From: Bacilli bacterium
Lineage (GTDB): Bacteria; Bacillota_I; Bacilli_A; ML615J-28; CAG-313
Direction of reading: 5' to 3'
Length of the DNA: 64,000 bases
Assembly (NCBI GenBank): GCA_017463365.1
Contig: JAFTPH010000052.1
Span: forward strand, 3,276 to 67,275
This document shows positions 3,772 through 23,217 of the stretch, in pieces (the stretch's first letter is position 1; each line of letters opens with the position of its first letter). Position numbers and translations under genes: made by a program. The notes below the pieces were generated by a model. The model was not told where the DNA came from. It ran no database searches and saw only the letters and a program-made list of their open reading frames with translations.

Positions 3772-3792
3772 TATATTATACCTCTTTCTTAT

Positions 3793-4335: not shown

Positions 4336-5775
4336 TTATTCAACAGTATAGATTTTTTGATTTTTACTTTTTGGTTTATTTGGAATAGTATAAGCAAGTA
4401 TTCCTTGTTCAATTAATGGCATCACGTGTGAATTTATAAAATAACTAGGATGTTTTTCGTTATATCCGAAGAATTTAGATAACGATTCTTTAGTTCTAGG
4501 CGTTTTACAGTATATTTTTATTTTCGAAATAAAATCATCATTAATAATATCTTCTTTTTTTGAATTATATAAAGTAACTTTAAATGTACCTCTTGAACTC
4601 TCGAATTTTGGCTCTAATAACCCTGCTTTTTTCATCTCTGCGTAAATTGTAGGTATTCCTGAATATCTATTTTCTGTAATTTCTAATATTTCTAAGACAG
4701 AAGCAATAAATGGATTTCTAATATCAGAATGCACTTTTCCCAAATCATCAAGAGAAAGTCTTCCATATAACCCACCGGGATTAGATATTTCAATTCTATC
4801 ATCAAAAATAGTTAATCTAATAGGTTCATTTTCAGTATGAATACTATAATCTCTATGAATTAATGCATTTAATATTATTTCTCTTATTGCTTTAATAGGA
4901 TATTCCAATATATCTTCTCTAATACCACTTTCATTAATTCTTGTAGCCTTTTTTATATTATTAACAACAAAAGAAATAGCCAATTTTAACATTTCGCTTA
5001 TTGTACCATCTAATCGTTTATTATCTAAGAATCTAATACCATTTTGATCTTCAATACCATAATCATCAGTTGAACATCTTACAGCAACAATATCTAAATT
5101 AGGAGAAAATATTTGGGGGTACTTGCCGAAATTCATAATACCACAAACTGTAGGATGATTATTTTTATCAATTATTCCATTTATTTTTAATATTGCATCC
5201 TTATCTAAATTAATTAAATTAGGTTTTAAAGATATAATCTTATTCAAATAATTATTTATTAATATATCATTAAGAATATCTGCTTCTATTCTTTCTTTAC
5301 TTCGAAGTTCATCTTCTGTCTTATATTTAAAAGCATCAAAACTATATATTTCATAATCTGTCATCGTATAATCAGCATCACCAACTCTTATATATGAACC
5401 TTTCATTTTACCTTTTCCAGAATAATAGCATGGTTTACTAAACACATCTAATTCAGGAATTTCAGCTGAAGCGATTATTTTCCCTTGATACTCACATATA
5501 GTAATTATTGGTCTAATTTTAGGTTCCATCATAAGTGATTGTTCTGCTATTTTCTTTTGTAAAATATCAGGATTACTTATACCACAAATTTCATAATTAT
5601 TTTTTTCATCAACACCAAATATTATTATACCTCCTGACGTATTAGAAAAACTAGAAAAAGTATCGTATAAATTTTCAGGTATCCCATCTTTAGATTTTTT
5701 AAATTCAATATTATTAGTTTCAGTTTTTAAAGATATTATATCTTCTATTAAATTAATCAATTCATTTTTTTGCAT
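4336..5775 (-). CDS. COG2865-type putative transcriptional regulator (N-terminal Schlafen/AlbA_2 domain, HATPase_c-like domain, C-terminal HTH)
   Basis: The ORF is 497 aa from the first in-frame Met. The likely start is Met19 (MQKNELINL…) at 5775 because of AAGGA RBS spacing. Domain order resembles the 'RecG C-terminal domain-like' regulators. Confidence 0.6.
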   Translation of the reverse strand: MQKNELINLIEDIISLKTETNNIEFKKSKDGIPENLYDTFSSFSNTSGGIIIFGVDEKNNYEICGISNPDILQKKIAEQSLMMEPKIRPIITICEYQGKIIASAEIPELDVFSKPCYYSGKGKMKGSYIRVGDADYTMTDYEIYSFDAFKYKTEDELRSKERIEADILNDILINNYLNKIISLKPNLINLDKDAILKINGIIDKNNHPTVCGIMNFGKYPQIFSPNLDIVAVRCSTDDYGIEDQNGIRFLDNKRLDGTISEMLKLAISFVVNNIKKATRINESGIREDILEYPIKAIREIILNALIHRDYSIHTENEPIRLTIFDDRIEISNPGGLYGRLSLDDLGKVHSDIRNPFIASVLEILEITENRYSGIPTIYAEMKKAGLLEPKFESSRGTFKVTLYNSKKEDIINDDFISKIKIYCKTPRTKESLSKFFGYNEKHPSYFINSHVMPLIEQGILAYTIPNKPKSKNQKIYTVE

Positions 5776-5964
5776 ATTCATCATATCCTTTTCTACTATT
5801 AGTATACTACAAAATTTATAAAATATCAATAAATTAGGAAAATAATTATTGATTTAGGAAAATTTTGCATAATTTTACGAAAATATTTTTCAAAAAACAA
5901 TTCATTTTTAATAATATTATTTTACTTATTCTTTAATTCGTATAAACACATTTTTTAATGGTAA

Positions 5965-5993
5965 AAGCAGCTCACTTTAAAAGTGAGCTGCTT
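5965..5993. terminator. 13-bp perfect hairpin AAGCAGCTCACTT-taa-AAGTGAGCTGCTT immediately 3' of the giant gene
   Basis: Inverted repeat read from the sequence. It sits between the giant gene stop (6009) and the next gene. Confidence 0.55.
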
Positions 5994-6008
5994 AAAAGCT
6001 TTTAAATG

Positions 6009-9000
6009 TTATTCTTTAGACTCTTCTTCTTCTCCAAAGTATAAATCATATAAATCATCTGTTGCTTGTTCTTTTGTTTCTTCATCATCAGGGTTTCCTG
6101 CAAGAGCATTAATAATATTATTTAATTTATTAAAGAATGAATTGAAGAAGTCGAATAATTTATCGAAGAAGTCTTCGAATACTTCAAAGATTGTCTTAGT
6201 AGGAGTTCTCTTAACACCAACGTGTCCACATACATCACAGTGACTTTCAGCTTTACCTGGTTCATCAGTTGTTGCTTCTACTGTGTCTTCCCAATGTGTA
6301 TATGTATGAGGGATAGTAGCGATATCACGTTGTCCAGCTTCTCCACAACGTTCACATGTACTTACTTCAATACCAACTTCATAACATTTTGGATTTTTTA
6401 CCTTATTCCATTCTACGAATAAGTGACCAGTTGCTTCAGTTGTACGAGTTTCGAAGTGATCACATCCTGAACAATATCTTGTTTCGATACCATCAGTTAT
6501 ACAAGTGTGAGCTTGTTCAACTTGCCAATCACCATAAGTATGTCCTGAGAAATCAGTGTAGTAATCACAAATTGTACATTCTTGCCAGTGGTAATTATCA
6601 GTTTGTTTTGCAACTAAATTGTGTTTTAAGTTAAGAACTGCTTCACCTGTGAATAAATCATAATTTTGTTTATAACCAATTACAATATATTCATATCTAC
6701 CAGCTTCTACTGGAGAATCACCATTAACAGCAATTGAGTTAAGTGGTAAGTCAGATAAGATTTCTTCTACTTTGTCAATTAATTCGTTATCCGCAAATAA
6801 TTGTAAAATATGAATTAATTTAACTAGTGGTGATAATTGACCTTGAATATCGAAGAATTCATCTTTAACTCCCCAACTTTCAGGTAAGATAACATTTACA
6901 GTATGAGTGTCATTACCTAATACTAAAATGATTTCTTCTAATCCGTATGGGTTGTTAATTACAACATTATGAGGTTCTCCATCATGGAATAATTCTACAT
7001 CTTCTAAAGACATACCATGTTCTTCAGCATAAATAGTCATTGTTCCAACTGCTAAACCATATTGTAATAATTCAGGGTTATTGTAGATTGCAGTAACAGT
7101 ATAGAATCCAACATTTGTAGGAAGTTCTGTACTACTATATACTTCACCATTACTCATTACACCATTGTAATAGCATGTTAAATATTCATTTGGTAAAATA
7201 TCTCCATTATCAGCATACGCTTCAGGAATTAAGCCTTGTGGCATACCATTATATTTAAATTCTGCATCATCATTTACAAATTCAACAGAAATTGTATCAA
7301 TAACAACTGTGTATACACGAACAATTGGAATTGCATATAACATTTCATTACCTAAATCACGAGTATAAGCAATTTGTGTATAAGCACCAAGTTCGCTAAT
7401 TGGTTGATCAGTTACATATTGTTCACCATTGATATCAATACCAATATATAATGTAGCAAGTTTAGAAGTTGCCGCTTCATATAATTCTTGAGATAATCCA
7501 TCTTTCTTAACGTGAGCACCTAAGATAGTTGGATCTTGCATGATTGATGCTTTTGTTACCATAAAGTTTTCAACTTCAACGTTGAATCCAAGTTCAACTT
7601 TTGTAGCATCAGGTATAATAGTGATATATCCTAAACCGAAGGCTGTTTCATAGTTTTGTGATGTTGTTACAGCACCAATTAAGTATAATCCAGCTTCTTC
7701 TAGATAAATATCTTTACCCATTGTTAACATAATTTCAATACCAGTTGTACTTGAAATTTTTTCTAATTGTTCAAGCAGTTTGATTGTACTATCTAATGCA
7801 TCACTACTTAAGCTAACACCAACTAAGTTTTCAAGCATTTCTAATGCATCTTTAATACCTTCGATAGCCGCTTTTAATTCAGAAATACTCATTTGTTCAT
7901 TGAATCCAAGGTTATCTAAGATTGTTTGAACATATGGACGAACTGATTCTGGAACAGAATCTAAATCGATTAAATTAGGAATATTTAAGTAACTCATCAT
8001 ACCGGCACTTGCGTTTAATCCAATAGCAAGTTCAATTACTTCTAATTCAGGTTCAGTTGTAATACGTTCAGAAATGTTAACACCAGTACCTTTAATATCT
8101 TTATAATTGAATGATCCAGATACAACATTTACTTTAGCAGGAGCTTTTTCAACTGTAATTGTACAAGTTAATGTAGCAGGTTGATAATCATATTCAGAAC
8201 CAGCATAAGATAATGTAATTGTATGATCTCCAGCATTTAAAGTTTCAATTTGAGCATCGCTTAATGAGAAGCGAATTTCAGCTTTATCGATAGCCACCTT
8301 AATACCATTTTCATTAATAATATAAGCACCTAAGTAACCATCTAATAATAAGTTATATACATCTTCAGCTGTATAGTTGTTATATACTACTGAGATAGAT
8401 GTTGCAGCATCGATATATGTCTTAGTACGACCATCGACAACTGTAAATTCTACACGTTTACTACATGGAGCATATTCATCATCTCCAGCATAGTTAACTA
8501 AAATTGTATAAGTTTGACCGAATGTTGTAATTGATGAAGCTTGGATTTCAGTTGTTCCACGATATAATGCATAAGTAAATTCTTTATTTAATACAACACC
8601 ATTTGTTTCATCATATAATCCAATACCTAAATCTTCAACAATTTGGTCAAGTGATAATACATCACCTTTTACGAATGGAATTTCAAGCACATCATTATTA
8701 GTTACTTTAGTAACATTACGTCCGTCACTAACCATGAATTCTACTGTTGCTTCACTTCCAAGATGTGTACTTGTTGCCGGGAATTTAACAGTAATAGTAT
8801 AAACACCAGCTTCAGTAATTTGTGTAATTTCTGTATTTGTCGCAGAACTTAAGCTATTTAATGTTACATTTGCAGAAACATAACCATAGTCTACGATAGA
8901 TGCAGTGTTACCTTTAATAGATACTGATTCAAACACTAAGTTGAATACTTCTTCTTTAGTAACATAGTCAGTAGGTAATACTTGAGTTACAACATCTGAT

Positions 9001-12000
9001 TTTAAGTTAACTTGTGTTTCAGGACGAGCATCAACAATAGTTAATTTAACTGTAACATCTGATGGTTGACTTGAATTATTACCTTTAAATTTAATAATAA
9101 CATTATATTCACCAACAGAATCAATTCCTTTATAATCAATAGTTTTACCTAAAATTGATTCCATATAATAAATATTATTACCTAAGTTAGCGAAGTCTAA
9201 GATACTTCCTTTATAGATAGCTGAAATATAGAATTCAGCATCATCAATTCTGTTGCCTTTTGCATCATATGCAACAGGGTTAAATGCTTTTAACACTTTT
9301 TCAAGTGTTTCAAAATCTGAACCAATTGTACTTAAATCGTCTTCATAAATAGTTACTTCTTCACATTCAGTCTCAGATTCACCACGCATATCTTTAATTT
9401 CAAATGTGATTGTTGTATCACATTTTTGATATTCTGCAGCACCTGGACAACTAATATGAATAGTGTATTTACCAACGTTGTCTAATGGTTCATATGCTTG
9501 AGCCCCATATTCTTTACCTAAAAGAGTTAATCCTTTAGAGTAATAAATTTCAGGATCAGCTAAATCAATTCTTACAATTAAATCAATTTCAAATGTACCT
9601 TGATATGAAACATTGATGCCTTCAAATGTTTCTACTTGTACAGTAGGATTTAAGTAAGCAAGTAATGATTCTAAACTATCAAATTTAACAGGAATTTGAC
9701 CGAAATTATATGCATCATAACTTAAGTTAGGAACATAAATTTCACCAGATGGACGACCATCACTTACTGTGAATGTCATTTCTGTTTCAAAACCTTTAAC
9801 TGTGTCAGTACCAGCATATACAAATGTGATTGTATAATCTGTGGCTTCATCTAATTCTTTATAAGAAACATTGATTGGAATATTATATCCACCAATTTCT
9901 ACTCCTTGTTGAATGTAGTAGAATCCAAGTTTCTTTAATCCTTCTTCTGTTAAATCACTTAAATTTAAATCTTCCCCTAAACTTCCTAAAATATCAGATA
10001 AGTCTAATCCTTTTCTAATACTTGTGATTGTAAGTTCAGAACTATAATATTCTCCGTTTCCAATTTTAACCATCGGATTAATGTATTGAGTTAAAATATC
10101 TAATGATGAGAATAAAGTTTCACTATCTGTTAACTTACTTTCAACATATGTATCATATTCCCATACAAGAGTTGCATCAACACGACCATCGACAACTGTT
10201 AACTTAGCAGTGTATTCACCAGGTTGATATGTATTATCTCCAGCAAAACTTACTGTAACAGTGTATTCACCAAATTGATCTAACCCATTAAAATCTATTA
10301 CTTTATTACTACCAATAATTGGAAGATCGTATCCATTAGGATTATAATAAGCTTTTGTTCCATTAAATACACTAACGATAGATAATCCAGATACACCATT
10401 TACACCATTAACATTAGGAGTTAAGGCAGCTAGTACTTTATCTAAAGTATCAAATCTAGTAGCAATATTTAATCTATTGTCAAATGAAATCATCGGATCA
10501 GTAAATGTTACTGTTGATTCTGCACGAGTATCAGTAACAGTAAATGTAGCTGTTGCTTTTGATCCTTGATGAGTTGCGGTTTCAATAAATTCTAATTCAA
10601 TTGTATATGTTCCAGCTTTATTTAGTGGCACATAATCTTTTACAGGAACAGACACATTACCTAATGTTGTACTAATTGTGTGTTTACCATTTGAGTAGTA
10701 AATATTATCTCTTGATAGAATAGTTCCAGTAAGTGATAATTCACCTTGATAAATAACATTAATAACAACATTACCATCTACACTAATATTATTTTGATTT
10801 TTAATAACACACTCTAAGGCTTCTAATACTTTATCAAGAGTATTGTATTTAGCTTCAAGTTCTAGGAAATTATTAGAGTCAACATTTGGATCTATCCAAT
10901 CAATTGATGTAGTCGGACGAGTATCTTTAATTTCAATTACGGCAGTACCAGTACATCCTAATGTTGTATCTGTTGCTTCATATTCGAATGTAACAGTGTA
11001 TAAACCAGGTTTAACAATAGGGTCTTTGTATGCCCCACCAGAAATAATTTCAGTAATATCATATTCTTCATAATATGACACTTCATTTTCGTCAACAATC
11101 GATTTAATCTTAACATTTGGTGAAGAAATTGTTTGATCACCTATAATTAACGAAATTGAGAATTTCTTTAATACATTGTCTTTTAATTTAAAATCATTTG
11201 CAAGTGTCGTATGATTACTATACTCTAATTCAACATCTGGAATAGATAATTTAGTTGTTGAACGACCATCTTGTAAACTTAAAATTGCTGTAACAGTTTG
11301 TGCAGGTTTATGAGTATTGTCACCTTCAAAGCTTAGGGTAATTACATAATTTCCTACAGCATTAACTGTCTTATCAGCTGTTGCTTTAATTACTAATCCA
11401 TCAGCTTTTGTAATTTGATTGTTAATTACATTTTCAATATAAGCATTAACAGCTGTAACTAATTTTTCTGATGAATTATATTTAATATTAATTGCACTAC
11501 TATTAATATTTGGTTCATTAACAACGATTGGTGTATTAGAAACATTGATTCTTGTATCAATACGATTATCGTTAATTGTTAATTGAATAGTATTTGTAAT
11601 ACCTTTATATGTTTCAGATTCTGTTAATCTATAAGTAATGTTATAAACACCATTTCCTTTATTAATTTTTGTAATTCCACTAATACTGAAATGTGAATCA
11701 TTAATTTCAGAAATAGATGTAATAGCACCACCATTTAATTCAATATTTGATTTAATAATTGCTTTTACTTTACTAATACTATCAACTATTGAGAAATCGT
11801 CTACTGTAAGTTCAATATCATCAATTGAAATTTCAGTACGAGTATCATCAATTGTAAAGCGAATTCGTTTTGTGCATTCTTTATATAGATCAGTTGCATT
11901 ATATTTAACATAAATATCATATGTTCCAGCTAATCTAACTTGTTCTACTGAACTATCATTTAATAAAATTTCAGTAATTTCTACAGTTGCACCAGCAACA

Positions 12001-15000: not shown

Positions 15001-18000
15001 GTGAATGGAATAAATTCTTTACCAGCTTGGTAATATAATACAGTAGCTCTTGTATCAGCATTATCATCAAAATAGATATAACTGATTGTAGGTTTAAATT
15101 TACCATTTACATTTGCTTCTAATAAAGTGATAATAGCATCTAATGAACTAAATTTATCATCAATTAAATTTAAATCAGCAAATGTTTCTGTAATACTATT
15201 AGCATTAATTGTAGTTGCTGCACGATTATCAGTTACTTCAAAGTTAACTACACATTGATTTACAGGTTTATTTGTATCATCTGTTGGATATGTTAATGTA
15301 ATTGTATATACTCCAAGAGCATCAATTGTATTAACAATATTTCCTGCGTTATCTGTAATTTTAATTTCAACTTTTGCTAAACGAGTATTATCAGCATTTC
15401 CATTAACTTTTACACTTACACCTAATTGTGCTAATAAATCAGCTTCATTTGCTAAAGCAGCTTTAATTGCATCAGCACTAATATCTGTTGCTTCATATTC
15501 AGTATTTGTATATGTAATTTCAATTTCTTCACGTGCATCATTAACTACTAATGTAATTTCTTGACTACATGGAGCACTATCATTATCACCAGCGAAACTT
15601 AATACTACTGTATATTCTCCTGCTTTGTTAATTGTAACTCCATTTTTAACTGTTGCAGTAAGAGGACCAGCAGTAAATTTATATTCAACTTCATCATTAA
15701 TTGCATTAACAATTTCTTCACTAGTATCTAAACCAGTTTCTAAACCGCTTAATGTAGGCACATCAATAGTTACTCTTGTAGGGAAAGCAATTGAAGTTGC
15801 AGCACGCTCAATTTTGAATGTGAATGTTAATGCACTTGCTTGGTTAGTTTCACTACCTTGAATAGAAATAGTTACTGTATAAGTTCCGTCATTTACAAGG
15901 TTAAGTGTTGAATCATTATAATATTCATTACCTTCAGCATCTACGATACTTGAGATAGCAACTAAATTTGTATTTACAACATTTCCATCAGCATAAACTG
16001 CAGGAATAATTTCTTTAATTGCAGCTAATGTAGCATCATTTAATTTAGCATATACTTTTTCAGTATAAGTATCTAAAGTAACAACTGGACGGTTATCGAC
16101 AATTGTAAATGTTGCAATTGCAAATGATTGCTTAATAGTATTTGTTTCATATACAAAAGTAATTTGATAAATACCTACAGCATCAATTGCGTTCTTAGTT
16201 TGCCAATCATCACTTTTATTTACTTTAAATTTGATTTCACCAAATTTAATATTTGCATAATCAATAGAAGTAACTAATTGACCATTCACTGTTAATTCAA
16301 CATTTCCAATTATATCTAATACTTCTTTTGGAGTATCAAATAAATCATTAATAGTTGATGAACTAGTAGATGGAGTATTATATGAACCAGTACCATTCAT
16401 ACTTAAACTTGAAGATAAACGAGCATCAACAAGTTTAAATCCTAATGTTTGTGTTAATGGTTTATATGTATCGCTTCCTTCAATCTTGATTGTTACACTA
16501 TATGTAGTCTCAAATTCAACATTTTCAGGATCTGCATAAGTATCAACTGTTGCATTAGCTAAATTTACTTCTAATGTATTTAAGATATTATCTTTAGCTA
16601 ATAAAGTATCAATTGTGCTAATATCTGTAATATCAATTTCTGAATCATAAGTTACTGTATATACTGAACGAGTATCTTTAATCTTTAAAGTTACTGTTTG
16701 TTCAGGTAATCCGAAATATTTATCATTTTCGTTTACTTTAACTTTTACAGTATATGTAGCATCACCATAAGGAATCTTATCAGTGGCGTTATAATTTGTA
16801 ACCGATACAGTAATATCGCTATCTAATATAGTTACACCATTAGCAATTGTTAACTTATCAATTATTAATTTTCTGAATGTTAAATCAGCAAAATCACTAA
16901 CTTCAACTTCAATTGAAGAATTAATTGCAGGTCTTGGTCTAACATCTGAAATTTTTAATGTTATGGTAACTGGAGTTGCAGGTTTATGAGTTTCATCACC
17001 CTTACAACTTAATGCAATTGTATAAGTTCCTACAGCACCAATTCCTGTTTCAGTTTCTTCTGTTATTGTATTACCATTAACTGTAATTACTGAAGCTGCA
17101 CCATTTAATTTAAATTGCACTCCATTTGCTACAAGAAGATCAACTAATTCAGCTAATGTGTCATATGCAGAAGTACGTTCTAATTTAGAACTAAATTCTT
17201 TTGTAATTTCATTTGTTGGAACATAGAAACCAGTTTCAGTACGTCCATCATTAAGTGTGAATATTACAGTTGATTCTCCAGATCTATATTTACTATTACC
17301 ATCGTAATCAATTGTAATTTTATATTGCCCAGCTGAAGTTATTTTAGTTACTTCAGTAGTTTTTAAACTTGCATTTGAAATAGTTTCTAATGCTTCATAT
17401 TGTCCACTTGTTGAATTATATTTTTCAATAATTAATGAAAGTCCACCAATTGTTTCAGCAAGTAATCCGTATTTTGTATTTTGAATAGCACTTAATAATC
17501 CTGTTGCTCCAATAGTAGTTAATAAAGTTTCTAACTTACCATATCCAGCAAGCTCAGTTAAACTTATAAATGCACATGTTGTATCTTTAACATTAAAAAC
17601 ATAAACTTCACGAGCATCAACTACTTCAAATTGAATTGTTCCAGCAGTTGCTTTATAAGTTTCAGTATCTAAAACTACAAATGCAATATTATATATTCCA
17701 GTTGTAGTAATTGGTTTATAACTTACTGGATTTTCTGAATCAGTATTATATAAGCATTCATTATTAGAATTTGTAATACTTAAAATACTAAAAGTAGTTA
17801 CATGCATTTTATCATTTAAAAGCATCGTTTTAATTTCATCTAAAGTATCGATTTTACTGTAATCACTTACAATGTCATATAAATTAAATTTATAATTAGT
17901 AAAACTTAATTCTTCACGAGCATCAGTTACATTTAATGTAACTTCAGTTTCTGCCATTGCTTTATAAGTTTCATTTTCTGCAACTGTAACTTTAATAACA

Positions 18001-20315
18001 TAATTTTTAGTTCCATATGGAATTTTTCCATCTGTAACACCTGTAATTGTTACATCGCTTTCAGCAACTTTAACATCTAATTTGCTAATTAAATATTCTT
18101 TAAATGTAACAACACCTTTATAATCAGTAATTGTTTCATTAAATGTAGTAGCAGTAATATTTGGAGTTGTACGACTATCTGTTAATGTAGCAGATACATA
18201 ACAGTTAGAATAAACACCAGATAAGTATACTCTTACACTTTCAGAATATGTTTGATTTTTGCTCCAATCAGTACCGAATCTATCAAACGAACTTCCATCA
18301 GTTATTACAACCCATTTATCTTGACCAGCATGATTTTCTTCAAATTGGATTGTAACATTATTAATGTTAAATACATCTTTTGTAGAATCCTTTAATACAT
18401 CATAAATCTTTTGTTTTAATTTATCACCAGTAATACTTGTGATATTATAATAACTAATTTTTGTTGACGCAAAACCAAATCCAGCGTTTGCTATTGGTGT
18501 TGCTTCAACGCTTAAATTATATGTTGTTTTAGTACTAGCAGTAGTGAATGTTCCTGTCCATGTAGCACCATTCCAAGAACCGTTAATTGCTACACCATCT
18601 AATAATATTTTACTAGCTTCAAGATAGTATTGTGAAGAAGGAGTAATTGTAATTGTAACATCTTGACCAGCAGGCAATGTTGCTCCACTAGTCTCTTTAA
18701 CTTCTTCATTTACTGTAGCTGTAACAGTTGCATTAGATACAGTCCAATTTAATGTTGAATCAGTATCTTGTCTTATCACCAATGTAACTGTTTTACTTTC
18801 AGCTGCAAGATAATCAATATTTTCAGCATAATTAAATTTAATTGTGTAATCACCAAAATCAGAAATTGCAGCACCAGATAGATTTGTATATTCACTTCCA
18901 TTAATAGTTACACTACTAAAAGATTTTCCATTATCAATATTAGCATTAAACATATTAATAATATCTTGAAGTTTAAAATCTTGGCTTTCTTCAAATTCTT
19001 TTTCTATTTTATCTGGAGAAGCAGAAATTGTAGGTTTAGATCTTTTTTCAGTTAATTTTGTTTCAGGAATAACACATTTACCATATTTACCAGATAAATA
19101 CACCTTTACATTTTCATATGTTTGTATTTTATCTTCACCAACTACAGTATTAAGTAAGAATTTTGATTCATTTCCAGATAAATCAATCCATTGGTTTCCT
19201 AAATAATACTCCCAATAAATTTCTATTTTTCTATAATCTAACTTTTCATCTTTACCTTCATTTAGAGCATCCATTATTCTATTTGCAATTGGATATTCAG
19301 ATGAAGTAGGACTAAATAAACTAATTTGAGTAGTATCAAACTTAAACTCATGTTTAGTCGCATTAACCGTTAATATATAATCTGTAGCAGTTGAAGTAAT
19401 TGTATAAGATCCAGTCCATACACCTTCACTTGACCATCCGCCATCTTTATTATACGTTGCACCAGGTAAACTAATATTAGTTGATGGATCAACATAATAA
19501 TCAGTTGATGGTGTAAGTCTAATATAAATCTTTGTCCCTAAAGGTAAAGATGTAGTTGATGTTAAAGCAGAAAAACTTCCAGAATCACCAATTTTTATTT
19601 CAGCAGTAACATTATTGAGAGCTGGCTTAATAGTTGATTCTTGTGTATATGTAATATTTAATTCTACATTACTTTTTAAAGTATTCGAAATGCTATATAC
19701 ACCATTAACGGCTTCAACAGCAACTGTATTATTTTCAACAACTAATTTATGATTACTTAAAAGATTTGATGATGGAGTATAAGTAATAGTTGTTCCATTA
19801 ATTGAAAGCGAATCATAATTATCTGCTGTGTACTCTTTAACGGTATTTGAGTCAACATAAAGGGTTTCTAACAGAGCATTTTGACCACCAATTGAAATAG
19901 TAACATCTAATATATATTCATATACATCAATTGTAACACTTTTCCCTGACATAATTGAACATTTTGTAGGTGACCAACTTGTACCTAAACCACTAAAAGA
20001 ATATATTTGAATAACATCATTCTCATTGAAAGATAATGTATTTCCGGCCCCATTATTTAATGTGCTATAAGTGATTCGTTCAGGGGTCCCACCATTAACA
20101 GAATATCCATAACTACCAGTACTAGCCGAAGAATTACTAAATCCAAATATGCTAACTAAAAGTTCTTTTTCAGTAGTTATACCATTTTTCAAATGAACAA
20201 CTGATCCATCTATCACATACTCTGCCTCTACCTCTACATTAGTAGATGTGAAACCTAGGATAGATACTACAGCAATCATTGCTATAAATAATCTTAATAA
20301 AAATTTTCTATTCAT
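6009..20315 (-). CDS. giant (4768-aa) secreted, repeat-rich surface protein (putative adhesin)
   Basis: Single 14.3 kb ORF. ATG start with an AAGGAGGTG RBS. N-terminal signal peptide MNRKFLLRLFIAMIAVVSILGF. About 35-40 tandem ~100-aa repeats ending in a T-x-T-L-x-V-x-D-x-R hinge, consistent with Ig-like/beta-sandwich modules. An MBG-like segment (…FKYNGMPQG…NVGFYTVTAIYNN…). A C-terminal Cys-rich 39-aa repeat x3, then an F-rich segment, then an acidic tail. No LPXTG. Confidence 0.85.
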   Translation of the reverse strand: MNRKFLLRLFIAMIAVVSILGFTSTNVEVEAEYVIDGSVVHLKNGITTEKELLVSIFGFSNSSASTGSYGYSVNGGTPERITYSTLNNGAGNTLSFNENDVIQIYSFSGLGTSWSPTKCSIMSGKSVTIDVYEYILDVTISIGGQNALLETLYVDSNTVKEYTADNYDSLSINGTTITYTPSSNLLSNHKLVVENNTVAVEAVNGVYSISNTLKSNVELNITYTQESTIKPALNNVTAEIKIGDSGSFSALTSTTSLPLGTKIYIRLTPSTDYYVDPSTNISLPGATYNKDGGWSSEGVWTGSYTITSTATDYILTVNATKHEFKFDTTQISLFSPTSSEYPIANRIMDALNEGKDEKLDYRKIEIYWEYYLGNQWIDLSGNESKFLLNTVVGEDKIQTYENVKVYLSGKYGKCVIPETKLTEKRSKPTISASPDKIEKEFEESQDFKLQDIINMFNANIDNGKSFSSVTINGSEYTNLSGAAISDFGDYTIKFNYAENIDYLAAESKTVTLVIRQDTDSTLNWTVSNATVTATVNEEVKETSGATLPAGQDVTITITPSSQYYLEASKILLDGVAINGSWNGATWTGTFTTASTKTTYNLSVEATPIANAGFGFASTKISYYNITSITGDKLKQKIYDVLKDSTKDVFNINNVTIQFEENHAGQDKWVVITDGSSFDRFGTDWSKNQTYSESVRVYLSGVYSNCYVSATLTDSRTTPNITATTFNETITDYKGVVTFKEYLISKLDVKVAESDVTITGVTDGKIPYGTKNYVIKVTVAENETYKAMAETEVTLNVTDAREELSFTNYKFNLYDIVSDYSKIDTLDEIKTMLLNDKMHVTTFSILSITNSNNECLYNTDSENPVSYKPITTTGIYNIAFVVLDTETYKATAGTIQFEVVDAREVYVFNVKDTTCAFISLTELAGYGKLETLLTTIGATGLLSAIQNTKYGLLAETIGGLSLIIEKYNSTSGQYEALETISNASLKTTEVTKITSAGQYKITIDYDGNSKYRSGESTVIFTLNDGRTETGFYVPTNEITKEFSSKLERTSAYDTLAELVDLLVANGVQFKLNGAASVITVNGNTITEETETGIGAVGTYTIALSCKGDETHKPATPVTITLKISDVRPRPAINSSIEVEVSDFADLTFRKLIIDKLTIANGVTILDSDITVSVTNYNATDKIPYGDATYTVKVKVNENDKYFGLPEQTVTLKIKDTRSVYTVTYDSEIDITDISTIDTLLAKDNILNTLEVNLANATVDTYADPENVEFETTYSVTIKIEGSDTYKPLTQTLGFKLVDARLSSSLSMNGTGSYNTPSTSSSTINDLFDTPKEVLDIIGNVELTVNGQLVTSIDYANIKFGEIKFKVNKSDDWQTKNAIDAVGIYQITFVYETNTIKQSFAIATFTIVDNRPVVTLDTYTEKVYAKLNDATLAAIKEIIPAVYADGNVVNTNLVAISSIVDAEGNEYYNDSTLNLVNDGTYTVTISIQGSETNQASALTFTFKIERAATSIAFPTRVTIDVPTLSGLETGLDTSEEIVNAINDEVEYKFTAGPLTATVKNGVTINKAGEYTVVLSFAGDNDSAPCSQEITLVVNDAREEIEITYTNTEYEATDISADAIKAALANEADLLAQLGVSVKVNGNADNTRLAKVEIKITDNAGNIVNTIDALGVYTITLTYPTDDTNKPVNQCVVNFEVTDNRAATTINANSITETFADLNLIDDKFSSLDAIITLLEANVNGKFKPTISYIYFDDNADTRATVLYYQAGKEFIPFTKVGTYKVVLSYAATDTHLAAENKEVTINVIDGREVIVLQNTVNEYPVSNISKDAISSKFTTIDDLFKIIGLKVLVNGNEANRLGKLTYTVSDGDKNYYNETGNVIEKVGNYSIKVTYPESNTNHKAELVVSFDIKDKRSVVTIDANNVSNPGIGFADLSQIPGQFDTLEEILKTINLSVKFDGTAQNYMTLVNNGNVKVTITDAGKNELTALTKVGVYTVTIEYIDDDTHDYKSEPKSVTLTLEDKRINPVIDENISKEVSDFNTTDTALEVLELIKNYIKDEKGNILDLSKQTYTIKVNGGNNGITSAGEYTVTVFVEDSDTCNAKTLETTLTIIDVRPTAVISVPNTSVGVDNLNEDLYSINSLDKVLEELGAYVSVGGVKDLSIKPRISAIYVGTINSIDDVDDLGVYYADSDAYYPIGSYKIDIPGKGFVKFDQISTYTIRLHLEDTKSYKVTVKEVTVNLKLTDQRQASTMTVAPIEPVDIYNTNWASIGRTFDKAAILNLFKAGIVVNGNAMVAGTVSVSDIDGELIDAITDYGSHTITFKFAGDNTHKPCTQTATLTLVDARPEPTIPSELSINVPDYGKDIIAQIKTLVLNNLTANANGQEVTIDANKVTVTIGNGITSIPVGYDGTYELKVTVAESETYKATTAKVTLTVNDTRSETSIEAKDYSFAEPDYSAIAGKYDEDSEIRNVLNATIVTTGTALDASNIVVTRYETINSIGTYYIELKFNGDMTHKPSVEVYKKIELTNGRKTTTMTVENVPFDASTSATIAENFKTLESVLAKFNVVVNDGTETIVSPNVVITRIEELDRDGNVKEVIYSGGDYNTFISNIATYKVTFKYVEDDTHNECTSHATITITDGRTPCTIDVANTVTLNVTDFGTIDTLAEIINQLNVKVLIGESVVENPTIVVQSIVDAENNSYINGTDCTINAAGTYTIAFAVEATSSYGTSNATVKVVVNDNRIATEITYTPKGLATDNFNKVFNIISELNIAVKDVAGATVEITEILLNDSSVEQVRLAGTYDIYVKYNATDLYKECTKRIRFTIDDTRTEISIDDIELTVDDFSIVDSISKVKAIIKSNIELNGGAITSISEINDSHFSISGITKINKGNGVYNITYRLTESETYKGITNTIQLTINDNRIDTRINVSNTPIVVNEPNINSSAINIKYNSSEKLVTAVNAYIENVINNQITKADGLVIKATADKTVNAVGNYVITLSFEGDNTHKPAQTVTAILSLQDGRSTTKLSIPDVELEYSNHTTLANDFKLKDNVLKKFSISLIIGDQTISSPNVKIKSIVDENEVSYYEEYDITEIISGGAYKDPIVKPGLYTVTFEYEATDTTLGCTGTAVIEIKDTRPTTSIDWIDPNVDSNNFLELEAKYNTLDKVLEALECVIKNQNNISVDGNVVINVIYQGELSLTGTILSRDNIYYSNGKHTISTTLGNVSVPVKDYVPLNKAGTYTIELEFIETATHQGSKATATFTVTDTRAESTVTFTDPMISFDNRLNIATRFDTLDKVLAALTPNVNGVNGVSGLSIVSVFNGTKAYYNPNGYDLPIIGSNKVIDFNGLDQFGEYTVTVSFAGDNTYQPGEYTAKLTVVDGRVDATLVWEYDTYVESKLTDSETLFSSLDILTQYINPMVKIGNGEYYSSELTITSIRKGLDLSDILGSLGEDLNLSDLTEEGLKKLGFYYIQQGVEIGGYNIPINVSYKELDEATDYTITFVYAGTDTVKGFETEMTFTVSDGRPSGEIYVPNLSYDAYNFGQIPVKFDSLESLLAYLNPTVQVETFEGINVSYQGTFEIDLIVRIDLADPEIYYSKGLTLLGKEYGAQAYEPLDNVGKYTIHISCPGAAEYQKCDTTITFEIKDMRGESETECEEVTIYEDDLSTIGSDFETLEKVLKAFNPVAYDAKGNRIDDAEFYISAIYKGSILDFANLGNNIYYMESILGKTIDYKGIDSVGEYNVIIKFKGNNSSQPSDVTVKLTIVDARPETQVNLKSDVVTQVLPTDYVTKEEVFNLVFESVSIKGNTASIVDYGYVSANVTLNSLSSATNTEITQITEAGVYTITVKFPATSTHLGSEATVEFMVSDGRNVTKVTNNDVLEIPFVKGDVLSLDQIVEDLGIGLYDETNGVVLNKEFTYALYRGTTEIQASSITTFGQTYTILVNYAGDDEYAPCSKRVEFTVVDGRTKTYIDAATSISVVYNNYTAEDVYNLLLDGYLGAYIINENGIKVAIDKAEIRFSLSDAQIETLNAGDHTITLSYAGSEYDYQPATLTCTITVEKAPAKVNVVSGSFNYKDIKGTGVNISERITTEPELEVIELAIGLNASAGMMSYLNIPNLIDLDSVPESVRPYVQTILDNLGFNEQMSISELKAAIEGIKDALEMLENLVGVSLSSDALDSTIKLLEQLEKISSTTGIEIMLTMGKDIYLEEAGLYLIGAVTTSQNYETAFGLGYITIIPDATKVELGFNVEVENFMVTKASIMQDPTILGAHVKKDGLSQELYEAATSKLATLYIGIDINGEQYVTDQPISELGAYTQIAYTRDLGNEMLYAIPIVRVYTVVIDTISVEFVNDDAEFKYNGMPQGLIPEAYADNGDILPNEYLTCYYNGVMSNGEVYSSTELPTNVGFYTVTAIYNNPELLQYGLAVGTMTIYAEEHGMSLEDVELFHDGEPHNVVINNPYGLEEIILVLGNDTHTVNVILPESWGVKDEFFDIQGQLSPLVKLIHILQLFADNELIDKVEEILSDLPLNSIAVNGDSPVEAGRYEYIVIGYKQNYDLFTGEAVLNLKHNLVAKQTDNYHWQECTICDYYTDFSGHTYGDWQVEQAHTCITDGIETRYCSGCDHFETRTTEATGHLFVEWNKVKNPKCYEVGIEVSTCERCGEAGQRDIATIPHTYTHWEDTVEATTDEPGKAESHCDVCGHVGVKRTPTKTIFEVFEDFFDKLFDFFNSFFNKLNNIINALAGNPDDEETKEQATDDLYDLYFGEEEESKE

Positions 20316-20379
20316 TTTTAAACACCTCCTTGTTTTTTATTTTTTTGTTTGGTTTAAATTCTATGAGTTCTTCAATCAT
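20308..20379 (-). CDS. candidate 23-codon leader ORF (MIEELIEFKPNKKIKNKEVFKNE) overlapping the start of the giant gene
   Basis: ATG with a GGAGGT RBS 6 nt upstream. Its TAG stop overlaps codons 2-3 of the giant ORF. The RBS of the giant gene lies inside this ORF. Confidence 0.3.
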   Translation of the reverse strand: MIEELIEFKPNKKIKNKEVFKNE

Positions 20380-20821
20380 ATTTTTACCTCCATTTTCTAT
20401 AAAAGTATACTTTTATAAACACATAAAATATACTATTTTTATTTCGAAATACCTATAAAATATACTTCTTTTTGATATTTCAAAATAGTATACTTTTGTA
20501 TATCATACTTATTATATCATTTCAAGATTTTAGATGCAAATGTAAAACTCATCAAATTGCAAAAAATGTCGAAAAAGAAAATGTTAAATTTTATTTTAAT
20601 TAAAATTTAACATTAATTTTAGAAAATTTTTATATAGTTTTTTTGGCAATTTTTTCCTATTTATTTTTTAGTTTTATATAATAAATATTTAAAAATAATT
20701 AGATTGATTATTTTATGGGCAAAACTATAAAATTGCTTGTGATTTATATAATTTAAAAAAGATATTTTTAATTTTTTATGAATTTTATAATAGTACAATT
20801 ATTATTTAATATAGAAAATAA

Positions 20822-21835
20822 TTATTTTATTTTCCAATATCCAGTTTTATCTGAACCTACTCTTTCTATTAGTTTGTTTTCCGCTAAATATTTAATATTT
20901 CTTCTCACTGTCTCTTCTGATTTATTTATTTCTTTTGAAATTAATGCATATGTGATATTTGGATTTTTAACTATAATGTCATAAATTTGTTGTTGGGTTT
21001 TATTTAATTTTACACCCACATTTACACCCACATTTACACCCACATTTTCTTGTGAATTTTGTACTTCTTCTCCAATAATATATGCAAAAGGTATTTTTAC
21101 TTTAATAAAATTATCTAAGAATTCGAATACTTCTTTTCCATATTTATCTACTACTAATGAAACACCATGACCAGTTTGTTCAATAAGTCCAAGTTGAATA
21201 AAAATTCTTGTAAGAACCTCATTAACTGGTTTACTAACTCCACTAAAGAAATCTTGTTTTGTAATACCACTTGCTAATCCACCAGTTGAAACAATTTCTA
21301 GGTGATCATCAAATATATAAACAGCAGGTGGAGTTCCATCCATCCAATCATTATGTAAACAAGCATTATACCAACTTTCTCTAAAAGCATCTGTATCAAA
21401 TAATTTTATATCTTTTCTAATGCCATTTTCAAATATGGTTTTTGTTGTATTGATTACATCAACGCAATAAGCATATGCTTGTTTCATTGAAACAATTAAA
21501 CATTTATATCCATATTCATTTCGATATTTAATATTACTTGCTTTTGTATATCCATCAAATACAACAACTTTTATTGATATATCGTTATCATCTGCCAATA
21601 AATTTGCCTGTAAATTGTACTTATAATCTTTAGTTAATAGTTTTAAATTATTTTCAAATGTTTCATCATTTACTGATAACCCTTTTTCTGTATATAACAT
21701 TTTTAAATACTGAAACTTTAGATTTTGTTCTCTAGCTTCAATATCAATTATTTTAGAATTTCTAGTCATATATTTATTAAAGTAATTTACAATTTGTTCT
21801 TCAGTCATTGATTTAGCAGTTGTACCTATTCTCAT
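20822..21835 (-). CDS. C-terminal part (HATPase_c-like + wHTH) of a second COG2865-type regulator paralog; probably a frameshift-split gene
   Basis: 337 aa homologous to the C-terminal two thirds of the 4336-5775 product (…IVSTGGL…GHGVSLV…). The C-terminal wHTH is NITYALISKEINKSEETVRRNIKYL. It contains a (VGVN)3 insertion encoded by a 12-bp tandem repeat. Confidence 0.5.
   Translation of the reverse strand: MRIGTTAKSMTEEQIVNYFNKYMTRNSKIIDIEAREQNLKFQYLKMLYTEKGLSVNDETFENNLKLLTKDYKYNLQANLLADDNDISIKVVVFDGYTKASNIKYRNEYGYKCLIVSMKQAYAYCVDVINTTKTIFENGIRKDIKLFDTDAFRESWYNACLHNDWMDGTPPAVYIFDDHLEIVSTGGLASGITKQDFFSGVSKPVNEVLTRIFIQLGLIEQTGHGVSLVVDKYGKEVFEFLDNFIKVKIPFAYIIGEEVQNSQENVGVNVGVNVGVKLNKTQQQIYDIIVKNPNITYALISKEINKSEETVRRNIKYLAENKLIERVGSDKTGYWKIK
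21013..21048. repeat. 12-bp tandem repeat CACCCACATTTA x3 inside a coding region (encodes VGVNVGVNVGVK on the minus strand)
   Basis: Read directly. Three in-frame copies, the last with one substitution. Confidence 0.9.
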
Positions 21836-21874
21836 ATAACATCCTAATGCACTTCTGCCATATTTCTTAATATA

Positions 21875-22171
21875 TTATAATGCATTACCTTTTTGTACAT
21901 CTATCTTTATGATCCATTTACCCTCATCAATAAATGCAGATGTAGTTACAAACTCTTGAGGATTAGGAAGTATTTTATCTGTGATTATATCAGATATTTT
22001 CTTCATTGATTCATCTAATTTGTTTGTTACTATTCCTACAATATTTCCATTATTTTCTACACCAATATAAATTGTACCATTATTTGTATTTAAAAAAGCT
22101 ACAATTTCTTTTTCTACTTTCTCATTTAATGTACCTTTTAATTCAATATCATGTGTTTCAGAAAAATTCAT
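21875..22171 (-). CDS. N-terminal Schlafen/AlbA_2 domain fragment of the same split COG2865 paralog
   Basis: 98 aa (…NTNNGTIYIGVENNGNIVGI…) matching the AlbA_2 core. It is separated from the 337-aa ORF by 40 bp in a different frame. Confidence 0.5.
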   Translation of the reverse strand: MNFSETHDIELKGTLNEKVEKEIVAFLNTNNGTIYIGVENNGNIVGIVTNKLDESMKKISDIITDKILPNPQEFVTTSAFIDEGKWIIKIDVQKGNAL

Positions 22172-23051: not shown

Positions 23052-23097
23052 TATATTTGTGCTGATGATTAAAAAACACAAATTTAATAAAAAACTA

Positions 23098-23166
23098 TCA
23101 CAAATCTCTTAAACAAAATGCCACAAATCTCTTAAACAAAATACCACAAATCTCTTAAACAAAATA
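23098..23166. repeat. three tandem 23-bp direct repeats (C)CACAAATCTCTTAAACAAAAT(G/A) abutting the -35 of the downstream ATPase gene
   Basis: Read directly. A degenerate fourth copy (CACAAATTT) lies just upstream. A TTTACA-17-TATAAT promoter follows at 23168-23196. Confidence 0.85.
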
Positions 23167-23217
23167 CTTTACATTTATTTTATTATAATGTATAATACTA
23201 TTAGAAGAGGTGTTTTT

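What the first reader, a model, noticed from the sequence alone, without database searches (positions are those of the whole stretch)
4336..22171. The giant adhesin gene is bracketed by two paralogous COG2865 (Schlafen/AlbA_2 + HATPase-like + HTH) regulators, one of which is split and carries a 12-bp in-frame tandem repeat
The intact paralog at 4336-5775 and the pair 20822-21835 plus 21875-22171 share the same domain order. The second copy is broken into two ORFs 40 bp apart in different frames, with the AlbA_2 part separate from the HATPase/HTH part. The split copy carries CACCCACATTTA x3 (21013-21048), encoding (VGVN)3 between the HATPase-like and HTH domains. Flanking paralogs suggest either a local duplication around the adhesin gene or dedicated regulators. 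The 12-bp repeat is a candidate for length variation by slippage.
Basis: partly seen in the sequence, partly recalled or inferred. Interest (0 to 1): 0.5.

Follow-up and report, generated by a model that had tools for sequence, protein, structure and literature searches.

The report
Two unrelated Schlafen-ATPase genes, one broken
The two genes either side of the giant surface-protein gene are distant members of a very common bacterial Schlafen-nuclease/ATPase/DNA-binding family, one killed by a single stop codon, and related genomes show that neither is tied to the giant gene, so the finding is ordinary.

Summary
Two ORFs with AlbA_2 (Schlafen) + HATPase_c_4 + winged-helix order flank a 4768-aa ORF, one copy is split, and it carries a perfect 12-bp x3 repeat.

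Three points fail. The split is not a frameshift. Both pieces are in one frame, separated by a single TAA where eight orthologues have TAT or TAC (Tyr). The two copies share only about 30% identity over 115 residues, so they did not arise by local duplication. Orthologues of both copies, at 72-90% identity, sit in many different contexts, never beside a giant gene.

Papers from 2025-26 reclassify this architecture as prokaryotic Schlafen tRNase fused to a GHKL ATPase and an HTH ("Schlatpase"), a defence-island family. Both copies keep the catalytic Ex4ExK motif. Their neighbours match the PADLOC candidates PDC-S01 and PDC-S02.

The 12-bp repeat encodes a disordered tether. It is a trait of this subfamily: 55 of 114 homologues have period-4 or period-7 repeats at that site. 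Orthologues carry 2-4 copies. Because it is in-frame, it cannot switch expression on and off.

In passing I found a conserved, Rfam-negative promoter-leader-terminator RNA upstream of the split gene. In relatives it sits in front of other cargo genes.

The parts
4336..5775 (-). Intact Schlafen(AlbA_2)-GHKL ATPase(HATPase_c_4)-wHTH gene ('copy A', 479 aa, NCBI MBQ8293330.1). Catalytic-type motif ETNNIEFK.
   Evidence: Pfam. Exact protein found in the collection with start at 5775. More than 100 clusters at 88-90% identity, all 479 aa. Ex4(E/D)xK motif in 112 of 119 homologues.
5801..5829 (-). Promoter-like site for copy A (TTGATA-17-TATACT).
   Evidence: Consensus match only.
5965..5993 (-). 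Terminator hairpin of the giant gene (AAGCAGCTCAC-TTTTAAA-GTGAGCTGCTT, then TTTT). It separates the giant gene from copy A.
   Evidence: Read directly from the sequence. The scan tool missed it because the T-tract is short.
6009..20315 (-). Giant ORF, 4768 aa (MBQ8293331.1). It has a signal-peptide-like N-terminus, about 30 tandem repeats of about 100 aa (aa ~800-3963), and a Cys/His-rich C-terminal part.
20511..20540 (-). Promoter-like site (TTTGCA-18-TG-TATAAT) in the 506-bp spacer ahead of the giant gene.
   Evidence: Consensus match only.
20822..21835 (-). C-terminal 337-codon remainder of the split gene ('copy B'): middle region, HATPase_c_4, linker, HTH_24.
   Evidence: AF2 pLDDT 87.8. 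Best PDB match 3lmm, E 2.4e-14.
21009..21047 (-). 12-bp tandem repeat (AATGTGGGTGTA x3 on the coding strand), encoding VGVN-VGVN-VGVK in the ATPase-HTH tether.
   Evidence: Model residues 258-274 have pLDDT below 50. Orthologues carry 2-4 units.
21836..21874 (-). 13 in-frame codons between the stop and the next ATG. They still encode the conserved YIKKYGRSALGCY.
21875..21877 (-). In-frame TAA nonsense codon at codon 99. Orthologues have TAT or TAC (Tyr) here.
   Evidence: 8 orthologous loci. (all intact homologues have Tyr).
21878..22171 (-). N-terminal 98 codons of copy B (MBQ8293333.1): Schlafen/AlbA_2 domain truncated at profile position 94 of 118. Catalytic-type motif ETHDIELK.
22202..22392 (-). 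Conserved structured 5' leader ending in an intrinsic terminator, directly upstream of copy B.
   Evidence: 80-84% nt identity to loci L003, L009, L015 and L017. Alignments. RNAalifold. MFE z-score -5.0. Covariance-model score 163.8 bits. 96.6% of cells paired, 6 pairs with compensatory changes. No Rfam match.
22399..22427 (-). Promoter-like site (TAGACA-17-TG-TATAAT) driving the leader and copy B. The -10 region is conserved in all copies of the leader.

Best explanation
The interval holds three independent transcription units sitting in a strain-variable stretch of an uncultured gut Bacilli genome.

1. Copy A is an intact prokaryotic Schlafen protein of the commonest architecture: an AlbA_2/Schlafen nuclease, a GHKL-type ATPase (PF13749) and a C-terminal winged helix ('pSlfn-HisKinase-HTH', 'Schlatpase-HTH', old COG2865).
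2. The giant gene encodes a secreted protein built of Ig-like repeats. It has its own promoter-like site and its own terminator.
3. Copy B belongs to a different, anciently diverged subfamily of the same architecture. One TAY-to-TAA substitution at codon 99 has inactivated it. This cuts off the Schlafen domain before it is complete and leaves the ATPase-HTH part as a leftover ORF.

Shown here: domain content, catalytic-type motifs, the nonsense codon, the divergence of the two copies, the lack of conserved linkage to the giant gene, and repeat copy-number variation.

Inferred from published work on relatives: such proteins are phage-defence-type, Mn-dependent tRNases. ATP binding by the GHKL module drives the oligomerisation that assembles the nuclease. 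The HTH end acts as a sensor or DNA tether. They are not operon-specific transcription factors.

The 12-bp repeat encodes a disordered tether between the ATPase and the HTH. Tandem tetrapeptides at this site are a hallmark of copy B's subfamily. Replication slippage or gene conversion keeps them homogeneous at the DNA level, and the number stays near three units.

The two copies lie near each other because this family clusters with other accessory and defence-type genes in variable islands. Duplication and joint control of the giant gene are not needed to explain it.
For: Domains.

Catalytic motif: Ex4ExK is present in both copies (ETHDIELK, ETNNIEFK) and in 111 of 114 and 112 of 119 homologues. 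The motif, the architecture frequencies (HisKinase 34%, HisKinase-HTH 19.2%) and the 69.6% defence-gene proximity come from PMC13056530. The SLFN+GHKL 'Schlatpase' unit, its C-terminal HTH in more than 90% of cases, and ATP-driven tetramerisation come from bioRxiv 10.64898/2026.05.29.728809.

Nonsense codon: same frame, with TAA where 8 orthologues have TAT or TAC. It is reproduced on 4 contigs. TAA is the normal stop here, 27 of 40 ORFs, and there is no suppressor tRNA in the window.

Divergence: 30% identity between the copies. Repeats occur in 55 of 114 homologues of copy B and 0 of 119 of copy A.

No linkage to the giant gene.

Variable region: a close relative, L026 (WhiA 95% and ChrA 92-96% aa identity), has different genes after ChrA.

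Defence-type neighbours: YhcG matches PDC-S02 (2.7e-133). The AAA_14/DUF4143 protein matches PDC-S01 (4.2e-51). Copy A matches the N-terminal part of a pAgo model (5e-17).

Repeated decay of copy B's orthogroup by different lesions: L023, L020, L035 and P0119.

Linker: disordered in the model. Repeat units are identical at the codon level, with 2, 3 or 4 copies among orthologues.

Separate transcription units.
Against: - No member of the Schlafen-GHKL-HTH architecture has been shown experimentally to defend against phage. The HisKinase-type constructs tested in E. coli gave no protection against the phage panel used (PMC13056530).
- PDC-S01 and PDC-S02 are only candidate defence families, and no validated defence system lies within the window stretch I scanned.
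- 30% of pSlfn genes are not near defence genes, so a regulatory or housekeeping role is not excluded.
- I could not test DNA binding by the HTH domains.
- No intact allele of copy B from the same species was found. The age of the stop codon and its polymorphism are therefore unknown.
- The 337-codon ORF has no further lesions and has an AGGA 6 nt before its ATG, so residual function is possible.
Confidence: 0.75

Rival explanations
1. Dedicated regulators: the two HTH proteins are transcription factors that jointly control the giant surface-protein gene they bracket.
For: All three genes are on the same strand and adjacent. Both flanking proteins end in winged-helix domains. The old COG2865 label reads 'predicted transcriptional regulator'.
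Against: No conserved linkage exists in any related locus. The giant gene's only relative with context lacks such neighbours. One 'regulator' is a pseudogene. The units appear to be transcribed separately. Current literature treats the family as nuclease effectors.
Confidence: 0.06
2. Local duplication: the two copies arose by duplication around the giant gene.
For: Same domain order, same strand, 15 kb apart.
Against: Identity is only 30% over 115 aa. The HTH types differ. Each copy has its own large set of orthologues at 72-90% identity elsewhere. The repeat-linker trait is present in one lineage only.
Confidence: 0.02
3. Functional split: the stop creates a two-protein system, or a deliberately disarmed one. 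The ATPase-HTH part would be re-initiated at ATG 21835 and kept for a function such as a regulator or dominant-negative partner, while the nuclease is lost.
For: The 337-codon ORF is free of further lesions in a 27% GC gene. An AGGA lies 6 nt upstream of the ATG. In L023, L020 and L035 the lesions also hit mainly the N-terminal third.
Against: The lesions are all different (nonsense, deletions, frameshifts), so nothing looks programmed. L035 also has a stop near the C-terminus, and P0119 is frameshifted at about residue 250. There is strong ascertainment bias, because long C-terminal ORFs are the ones a protein search recovers. The ATG codes for a conserved internal Met, not a new start.
Confidence: 0.12
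4. Artefact or recoding: the TAA is a sequencing or assembly error, or is read through.
For: It is a single-base change. The source is a metagenome-assembled genome.
Against: Identical split products are found on 4 contigs from at least 3 samples. TAA is the main stop codon here, and no suppressor tRNA is seen in the window. Other members of the orthogroup are also decayed.
Confidence: 0.04

Closest known systems
Prokaryotic Schlafen proteins of the HisKinase-HTH type (pSlfn; 'Schlatpase'-HTH; COG2865)
   Same: The domain order is AlbA_2 (PF04326) + GHKL ATPase (PF13749) + C-terminal HTH. The Ex4(E/D)xK motif sits near the N-terminus. They occur among accessory and defence-type genes.
   Different: Copy B is a nonsense pseudogene. 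Copy B's subfamily carries a homogenised tetrapeptide-repeat tether, which I did not find described in the papers read. Function is untested for this architecture.
DIP2311 of Corynebacterium diphtheriae (PDB 3LMM) and the RecG-related AlbA_2 domain protein (PDB 2KYY)
   Same: They are the only solved relatives. 3lmm matches by sequence (E 2.4e-4 and 7.4e-8) and by fold (Foldseek E 2.4e-14) over the ATPase part. 2kyy matches copy A's AlbA_2 domain (5.7e-10).
   Different: Both are structural-genomics entries without a known function. Identity is about 16%.
SLFN-pAgo (RzAgo) and the tested defence Schlafens RorSlfn5 and EcoSlfn7
   Same: They share the Schlafen nuclease. For SLFN-pAgo, they also share the SLFN+GHKL unit. 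Copy A hits the N-terminal 400 positions of a PADLOC pAgo model.
   Different: The window proteins have no Argonaute, Ig-like or DUF262 sensor. They end in a small HTH instead.
Simple-sequence contingency loci (phase variation by slipped-strand mispairing)
   Same: A perfect short tandem repeat lies inside a coding region, and its copy number differs between lineages.
   Different: The unit is 12 bp, so changes keep the reading frame. The number stays within 2-4. No exact run exceeds 11 aa in 114 homologues. It tunes linker length at most and is not an on/off switch.
Giant Ig-like-repeat surface proteins of Firmicutes (internalin K, the S-layer proteins Sap and SbsC; MBG/Big-domain proteins)
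   Different: No Pfam domain, no LPXTG or other recognised anchor, and no adhesin domain are present. Binding function is untested.

Membership tests
Prokaryotic Schlafen / 'Schlatpase'-HTH (COG2865) | Schlafen AlbA_2 domain (PF04326) | tested here: met
   Copy A E 2.6e-16. Copy B N-terminal ORF E 2.6e-15, truncated at profile position 94 of 118.
Prokaryotic Schlafen / 'Schlatpase'-HTH (COG2865) | Catalytic Ex4(E/D)xK motif in the Schlafen domain | tested here: met
   ETNNIEFK in A and ETHDIELK in B. Found in 112 of 119 and 111 of 114 homologues. The motif definition is from PMC13056530.
Prokaryotic Schlafen / 'Schlatpase'-HTH (COG2865) | GHKL-type ATPase domain PF13749 following the Schlafen domain | tested here: met
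   A 1.6e-25, B 5.1e-15. The fold matches 3lmm.
Prokaryotic Schlafen / 'Schlatpase'-HTH (COG2865) | C-terminal helix-turn-helix | tested here: met
   B has HTH_24 at 1.6e-7, and its model resembles MarR/ArsR winged helices. A has only a sub-threshold Fic-like_C wHTH match (2.1e-4, 21.6 bits against a cut-off of 27).
Prokaryotic Schlafen / 'Schlatpase'-HTH (COG2865) | Location near defence genes (within 10 kb) | tested here: inconclusive
   The only PADLOC hits nearby are the candidate families PDC-S02 (YhcG, 1947-2972) and PDC-S01 (23188-24498). No validated system was found.
Prokaryotic Schlafen / 'Schlatpase'-HTH (COG2865) | Mn-dependent tRNA cleavage and protection against phage | not testable with these tools
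   This needs biochemistry and phage assays. The published tests of HisKinase-type pSlfn in E. coli were negative.
Operon-specific transcriptional regulator of the giant gene | Conserved genomic linkage of regulator and target | tested here: not met
   None of the loci holding orthologues of B or A has a giant ORF or any shared neighbour.
Recent tandem or segmental duplicate | High sequence identity between the two copies | tested here: not met
   30% over 115 aa and 37% over 49 aa.
Phase-variable contingency locus | A change in repeat number shifts the reading frame or promoter spacing | tested here: not met
   The unit is 12 bp, lies inside the ORF, and stays in frame.
Phase-variable contingency locus | Copy-number polymorphism within a species or population | tested here: inconclusive
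   The four contigs of this species all encode the same product. Orthologues at about 80% identity have 2-4 units. No read data were available.
Bacterial adhesin | Recognised adhesin or binding domain and a cell-wall anchor | tested here: not met
   There is no Pfam or NCBIfam hit. No LPXTG is visible in the translation. Fold similarity to Ig-like surface-protein domains is generic only.
Riboswitch or attenuator leader (for the element at 22202-22392) | Intrinsic terminator preceded by a conserved structured region, with covariation | tested here: inconclusive
   The terminator shows compensatory changes (CGGAAA/TTTCCG against GCGGAG/CTCCGC). 96.6% of cells are paired and 6 pairs are compensatory. 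However, there are only 6 sequences from about 4 lineages.
Riboswitch or attenuator leader (for the element at 22202-22392) | Match to a described RNA family | tested here: not met
   No Rfam 15 match at gathering threshold or at E <= 1.

The most novel reading that the evidence does not exclude
The ~190-nt promoter-leader-terminator element upstream of the split gene may be an undescribed cis-regulatory RNA. It would gate expression of interchangeable defence-type cargo at a chromosomal hotspot in uncultured gut Bacilli. The cargo is a Schlafen-ATPase gene here, a YhcG/PDC-S02 nuclease in four related loci, and a RhuM-like gene in a close relative.

Alongside this, the homogenised (4 aa) x ~3 repeat may be a length-tuned tether specific to one Schlafen-ATPase-HTH subfamily. 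The repeated loss of the nuclease end of that subfamily may reflect selection against a self-toxic effector.
Probability: 0.2. Interest if true: 0.55.

Novelty: new member of a known kind. Interest (0 to 1): 0.22.

Why it matters
As stated, the finding matters little. The supposed regulatory bracket around a giant surface-protein gene is coincidental. It reflects accessory genes sitting together in a variable region.

The practical value is corrective, in three ways:
- These 'COG2865 regulators' should now be read as Schlafen-type nuclease/ATPase proteins of the defence-island kind.
- The split is a plain nonsense pseudogene.
- The in-frame repeat is a family-wide tether, not a phase switch.

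Two side observations could be worth a small follow-up. One is the family-wide, DNA-homogenised tetrapeptide tether. The other is the Rfam-negative leader shared by different defence-type genes.

Tried and rejected
- Searching species-representative genomes with the giant protein found nothing.
- A whole-protein homologue search of the giant protein timed out. Its C-terminal 819 aa gave only 13 weak relatives.
- Foldseek of the repeat model against the PDB gave no hit below E 0.06. The afdb50 library was unavailable.
- Rfam found nothing for the leader.
- The covariance model found only its six training copies in all held loci.
- Exact-pattern scans for the leader gave one metagenome hit (L026). 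They gave none in viral contigs except a chance 20-mer. BLAST found nothing in plasmids or phages.
- I considered 6S RNA and a leader peptide for the leader. I rejected 6S because the RNA ends do not pair. I rejected a leader peptide because the short ORF is not conserved: L017 has a stop at the 4th codon.
- I considered that the 12-mer might be an operator reused elsewhere. It occurs only in the repeat.
- I considered that lesions cluster in the nuclease end by selection. The data are too biased by how the loci were found, and L035 and P0119 carry lesions elsewhere.
- I did not attempt a dN/dS test of the leftover ORF. At about 80% protein identity in a 27% GC genome, synonymous sites are saturated.
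Full report
WHAT IS THERE

The interval holds four ORFs, all on the minus strand: 4336-5829, 6009-20315, 20822-21835 and 21875-22171.

Pfam assigns the following:
- The first ORF has AlbA_2/Schlafen (2.6e-16), HATPase_c_4 (1.6e-25) and a sub-threshold Fic-like_C winged helix.
- The 98-aa ORF has AlbA_2 only (2.6e-15).
- The 337-aa ORF has HATPase_c_4 (5.1e-15) and HTH_24 (1.6e-7).

An exact look-up shows the source is an NCBI MAG labelled 'Bacilli bacterium'. There the genes are MBQ8293330.1 (479 aa, start 5775), MBQ8293331.1 (hypothetical, 4768 aa) and MBQ8293333.1 (98 aa).

THE SPLIT IS A NONSENSE CODON, NOT A FRAMESHIFT

Translating 22171-20822 in one frame gives a single protein interrupted once...KGNAL*YIKKYGRSALGCYMRIGTT.... 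The two ORFs are 336 nt apart, which is 3 x 112. The 13 codons between the stop and the next ATG still encode residues that are nearly invariant in the family.

At the stop position the window and an independent metagenome contig both read TAA. Eight orthologous loci read TAT or TAC.

The same two products are called on four contigs from at least three samples. TAA is the main stop codon in the window (27 of 40 ORFs), and none of the eight tRNAs in the window is a suppressor. An error or a recoding event is therefore unlikely.

No intact allele above 83% identity exists in the 5.8-billion-cluster collection. Whether the stop is polymorphic within the species remains open.

THE TWO COPIES ARE OLD PARALOGUES

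BLASTP gives 30% identity over 115 residues of the ATPase part and 37% over 49 residues of the Schlafen part. The C-terminal HTH types differ.

Each copy has its own large orthologous set:
- Copy B has intact proteins of 443-450 aa at 74-83% identity in Bacilli, Erysipelotrichaceae and Mollicutes MAGs.
- Copy A has more than 100 clusters at 88-90% identity, all 479 aa.

A profile search of all six frames finds no third copy in the 64-kb window.

NEITHER COPY IS LINKED TO THE GIANT GENE

Orthologues of copy B sit after DUF975 and before HTH_3/ECF-sigma genes (L003-L008, L013, L017). Others sit directly before a YhcG nuclease (L009-L011, L015), or in yet other settings (L016, L018-L020). None has a giant ORF within 10 kb.

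tblastn of all window genes against these loci recovers only copy B and a 40%-identical YhcG.

Homologues of copy A lie in three contexts:
- next to RNase J and a DUF4368 fragment;
- next to a sigma/RsgI pair and thioredoxin genes;
- next to serine recombinases and an RHS protein.

None of these shares a neighbour with the window.

The giant protein has no relative among 185,579 species-representative genomes. Its only relatives match the C-terminal part at 31-34% identity. The one with context follows UvrB-UvrA and has no Schlafen neighbour.

Inside the window the units look separately transcribed:
- The giant gene is followed by an 11-bp-stem hairpin with a T-tract at 5993-5963.
- Copy A has its own promoter-like site.
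- A 506-bp spacer containing an extended -10 site precedes the giant gene.

WHAT THE FLANKING GENES ARE

The COG label 'regulator' is out of date. Three papers from 2025-26 bear on this:
- PMC13056530 identifies 5,930 prokaryotic Schlafen proteins with a conserved Ex4(E/D)xK active-site motif. Fusions to a histidine-kinase-like ATPase make up 34.0%, and fusions to ATPase plus HTH make up 19.2%. 69.6% lie within 10 kb of a defence gene. Two tested members (fused to DUF262 and to an Ig-like domain) protect E. coli by cleaving tRNA. The HisKinase-type constructs gave no protection against the phage panel used.
- A 2026 preprint names the SLFN + PF13749 unit 'Schlatpase'. It is found in 58.6% of prokaryotic SLFN proteins, and more than 90% of those carry a C-terminal HTH. 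In a Schlafen-Argonaute fusion, ATP binding by the GHKL part drives the tetramerisation that builds the nuclease.
- A Nature Communications paper reports many Schlafen-ATPase-DNA-binding proteins next to BREX, restriction-modification and type I CRISPR loci.

Both window copies carry the motif (ETNNIEFK and ETHDIELK), as do 112 of 119 and 111 of 114 homologues.

PADLOC results fit this picture:
- Copy A matches the N-terminal 400 positions of a pAgo model (5e-17).
- The nearby YhcG matches PDC-S02 (2.7e-133).
- The AAA_14/DUF4143 protein at 23188-24498 matches PDC-S01 (4.2e-51).

These are candidate families, not validated ones. The next 10 kb to the right is housekeeping: chromate transporters, WhiA, TrxB, Lgt and UvrA.

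The only solved relatives are uncharacterised structural-genomics entries, 3LMM and 2KYY.

The mechanism I give is therefore inferred from relatives and not shown here. In that reading the proteins are ATP-gated Schlafen tRNases with an HTH sensor or tether.

THE REGION IS STRAIN-VARIABLE

Contig L026 comes from a close relative, with WhiA 95% and the two ChrA proteins 96% and 92% identical. After ChrA it carries only Schlafen-domain remnants, the leader RNA described below, and a different gene.

In the window the same position is followed by an ABC transporter, three plus-strand genes, the leader, copy B, the giant gene, copy A, Fur and rubrerythrin.

Two Schlafen genes lying together is thus what a variable accessory region would produce.

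COPY B'S ORTHOGROUP DECAYS OFTEN

Besides the window, four other members are broken:
- L023 has a 23-codon deletion in the Schlafen domain plus a frameshift near codon 93.
- L020 lacks codons of about 90-126.
- L035 and L036 have stops at about codons 39, 139 and 444, plus a frameshift near codon 84.
- P0119 is frameshifted near residue 250.

All these lesions differ from one another, so nothing is programmed.

Most lesions hit the nuclease end. That is suggestive, but the way these loci were found favours long C-terminal ORFs, so I do not build on it.

THE 12-BP REPEAT

TRF reports 21009-21047, period 12, 3.2 copies, 100% match. On the coding strand it is AATGTGGGTGTA x3, encoding VGVN-VGVN-VGVK.

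An AlphaFold model of the 337-aa ORF, built with 72 homologues, has mean pLDDT 87.8. Residues 258-274, which hold the repeat, fall below 50. The well-folded ATPase core lies before them and a winged helix after them. The repeat is therefore a disordered tether.

The repeat is not peculiar to this gene. 55 of 114 full-length homologues of copy B have exact period-4 (62 cases) or period-7 (8 cases) peptide repeats. All lie at relative position 0.67-0.89. Their unit sequences differ (VGVN, NVPQ, KVTD, VPEN, DTVN, QDGT, LPRE, DPIN and others). None of 119 homologues of copy A has one.

Units within a gene are identical codon for codon. Close orthologues differ in number:
- VGVN type: 2 units (L023, L009), 3 units (window, L013, L015), 4 units (L017).
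- NVPQ type: 3 units (L016, L018-L020) against 2 units (P0004).

No exact run exceeds 11 residues.

But the number is held near three, the changes stay in frame, and this copy is already inactive. The four contigs of this species show no variation.

THE GIANT GENE

The protein has a signal-peptide-like start and about 30 repeats of about 100 aa, each ending in ...G-YTIT...D.R.

The repeat profile finds 597 representative proteins among 1.84 billion, nearly all large multi-repeat proteins.

'Surface repeat protein' is a fair label. 'Adhesin' is a guess.

SEEN IN PASSING: A CONSERVED LEADER

Directly upstream of copy B lies a promoter-like site (TAGACA-17-TG-TATAAT, 22427-22399). It is followed by about 190 nt that fold into three elements:
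- a hairpin with an invariant loop;
- a small variable hairpin;
- a long terminator hairpin (MFE z-score -5.0).

The element is 80-84% identical to segments of L003, L009, L015 and L017. There it stands in front of the YhcG gene, not the Schlafen gene. In L026 it precedes a gene whose N-terminus looks RhuM-like. That label rests on my memory only, because the 58 residues held give no Pfam hit.

On six sequences, 96.6% of cells pair and six pairs show compensatory changes. These include the terminator (CGGAAA/TTTCCG against GCGGAG/CTCCGC). Controls with slid partners pair at about 45%.

Rfam has no match, even at E <= 1. I could not find further copies.

Six sequences from about four lineages are too few to call it a riboswitch. 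A conserved attenuator shared by different accessory genes is the most that can be said.

VERDICT

The interpretation (duplication or dedicated regulators) is not supported. Only the repeat-variation guess holds, and in a weak, evolutionary sense.

The genes are new members of a known and very common family. One of them is an ordinary nonsense pseudogene. Interest is low.

Noticed in passing
window 22202-22430 (- strand); also L003:17103-17303, L009:3716-3915, L015:3349-3548, L017:17402-17602, L026:193-385(-): A conserved promoter + ~190-nt structured leader + intrinsic terminator. It has no Rfam match. It stands in front of different accessory genes in different genomes: the split Schlafen gene here, YhcG/DUF1016 in four relatives, and a RhuM-like gene in L026. 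The terminator and P1 stems show compensatory changes.
   Followed up: partly
window ~22200-27300 compared with L026: A close relative (WhiA 95%, ChrA 92-96% aa identity) has quite different content right after the two ChrA genes. The stretch holding the ABC transporter, DUF7724, PDC-S01, GNAT, both Schlafen genes and the giant gene therefore behaves as a strain-variable hotspot.
   Followed up: partly
[not shown]
   Followed up: partly
window ~6200-6640 (giant ORF aa ~4560-4700): Four Cys/His-rich units of the form H-x-W...C...C-x2-C (for example HTYGDWQVEQAHTCITDGIETRYCSGCDH) lie near the C-terminus. They are followed by a Phe-rich amphipathic stretch and an acidic tail. No recognisable cell-wall anchor is present.
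   Followed up: no
L023:357-1615, L020:10001-11196, L035:2537-3855, protein P0119: Orthologues of the split gene are independently broken in at least four other lineages by different lesions (deletions, frameshifts, stops). This suggests frequent loss of this Schlafen subfamily.
   Followed up: yes
window 23188-25261 (+ strand): An AAA_14/DUF4143 ATPase (PADLOC candidate PDC-S01, 4.2e-51) is followed by a small DUF7724 protein (5.2e-39). They may form a two-gene accessory module next to the Schlafen genes.
   Followed up: no
L003:17322-18388 and L005:8292-9358: In these relatives the YhcG/DUF1016 nuclease downstream of the leader is itself split into DUF1016_N and YhcG_C ORFs. This is another broken accessory gene at the same site.
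   Followed up: no
window ~22485-22630 (- strand): A promoter-like site (22629-22601) is followed about 90 nt later by a terminator-like hairpin (22507-22488). No ORF lies between them, and the segment sits just upstream of the leader's promoter. It could be a small transcript or chance matches.
   Followed up: no
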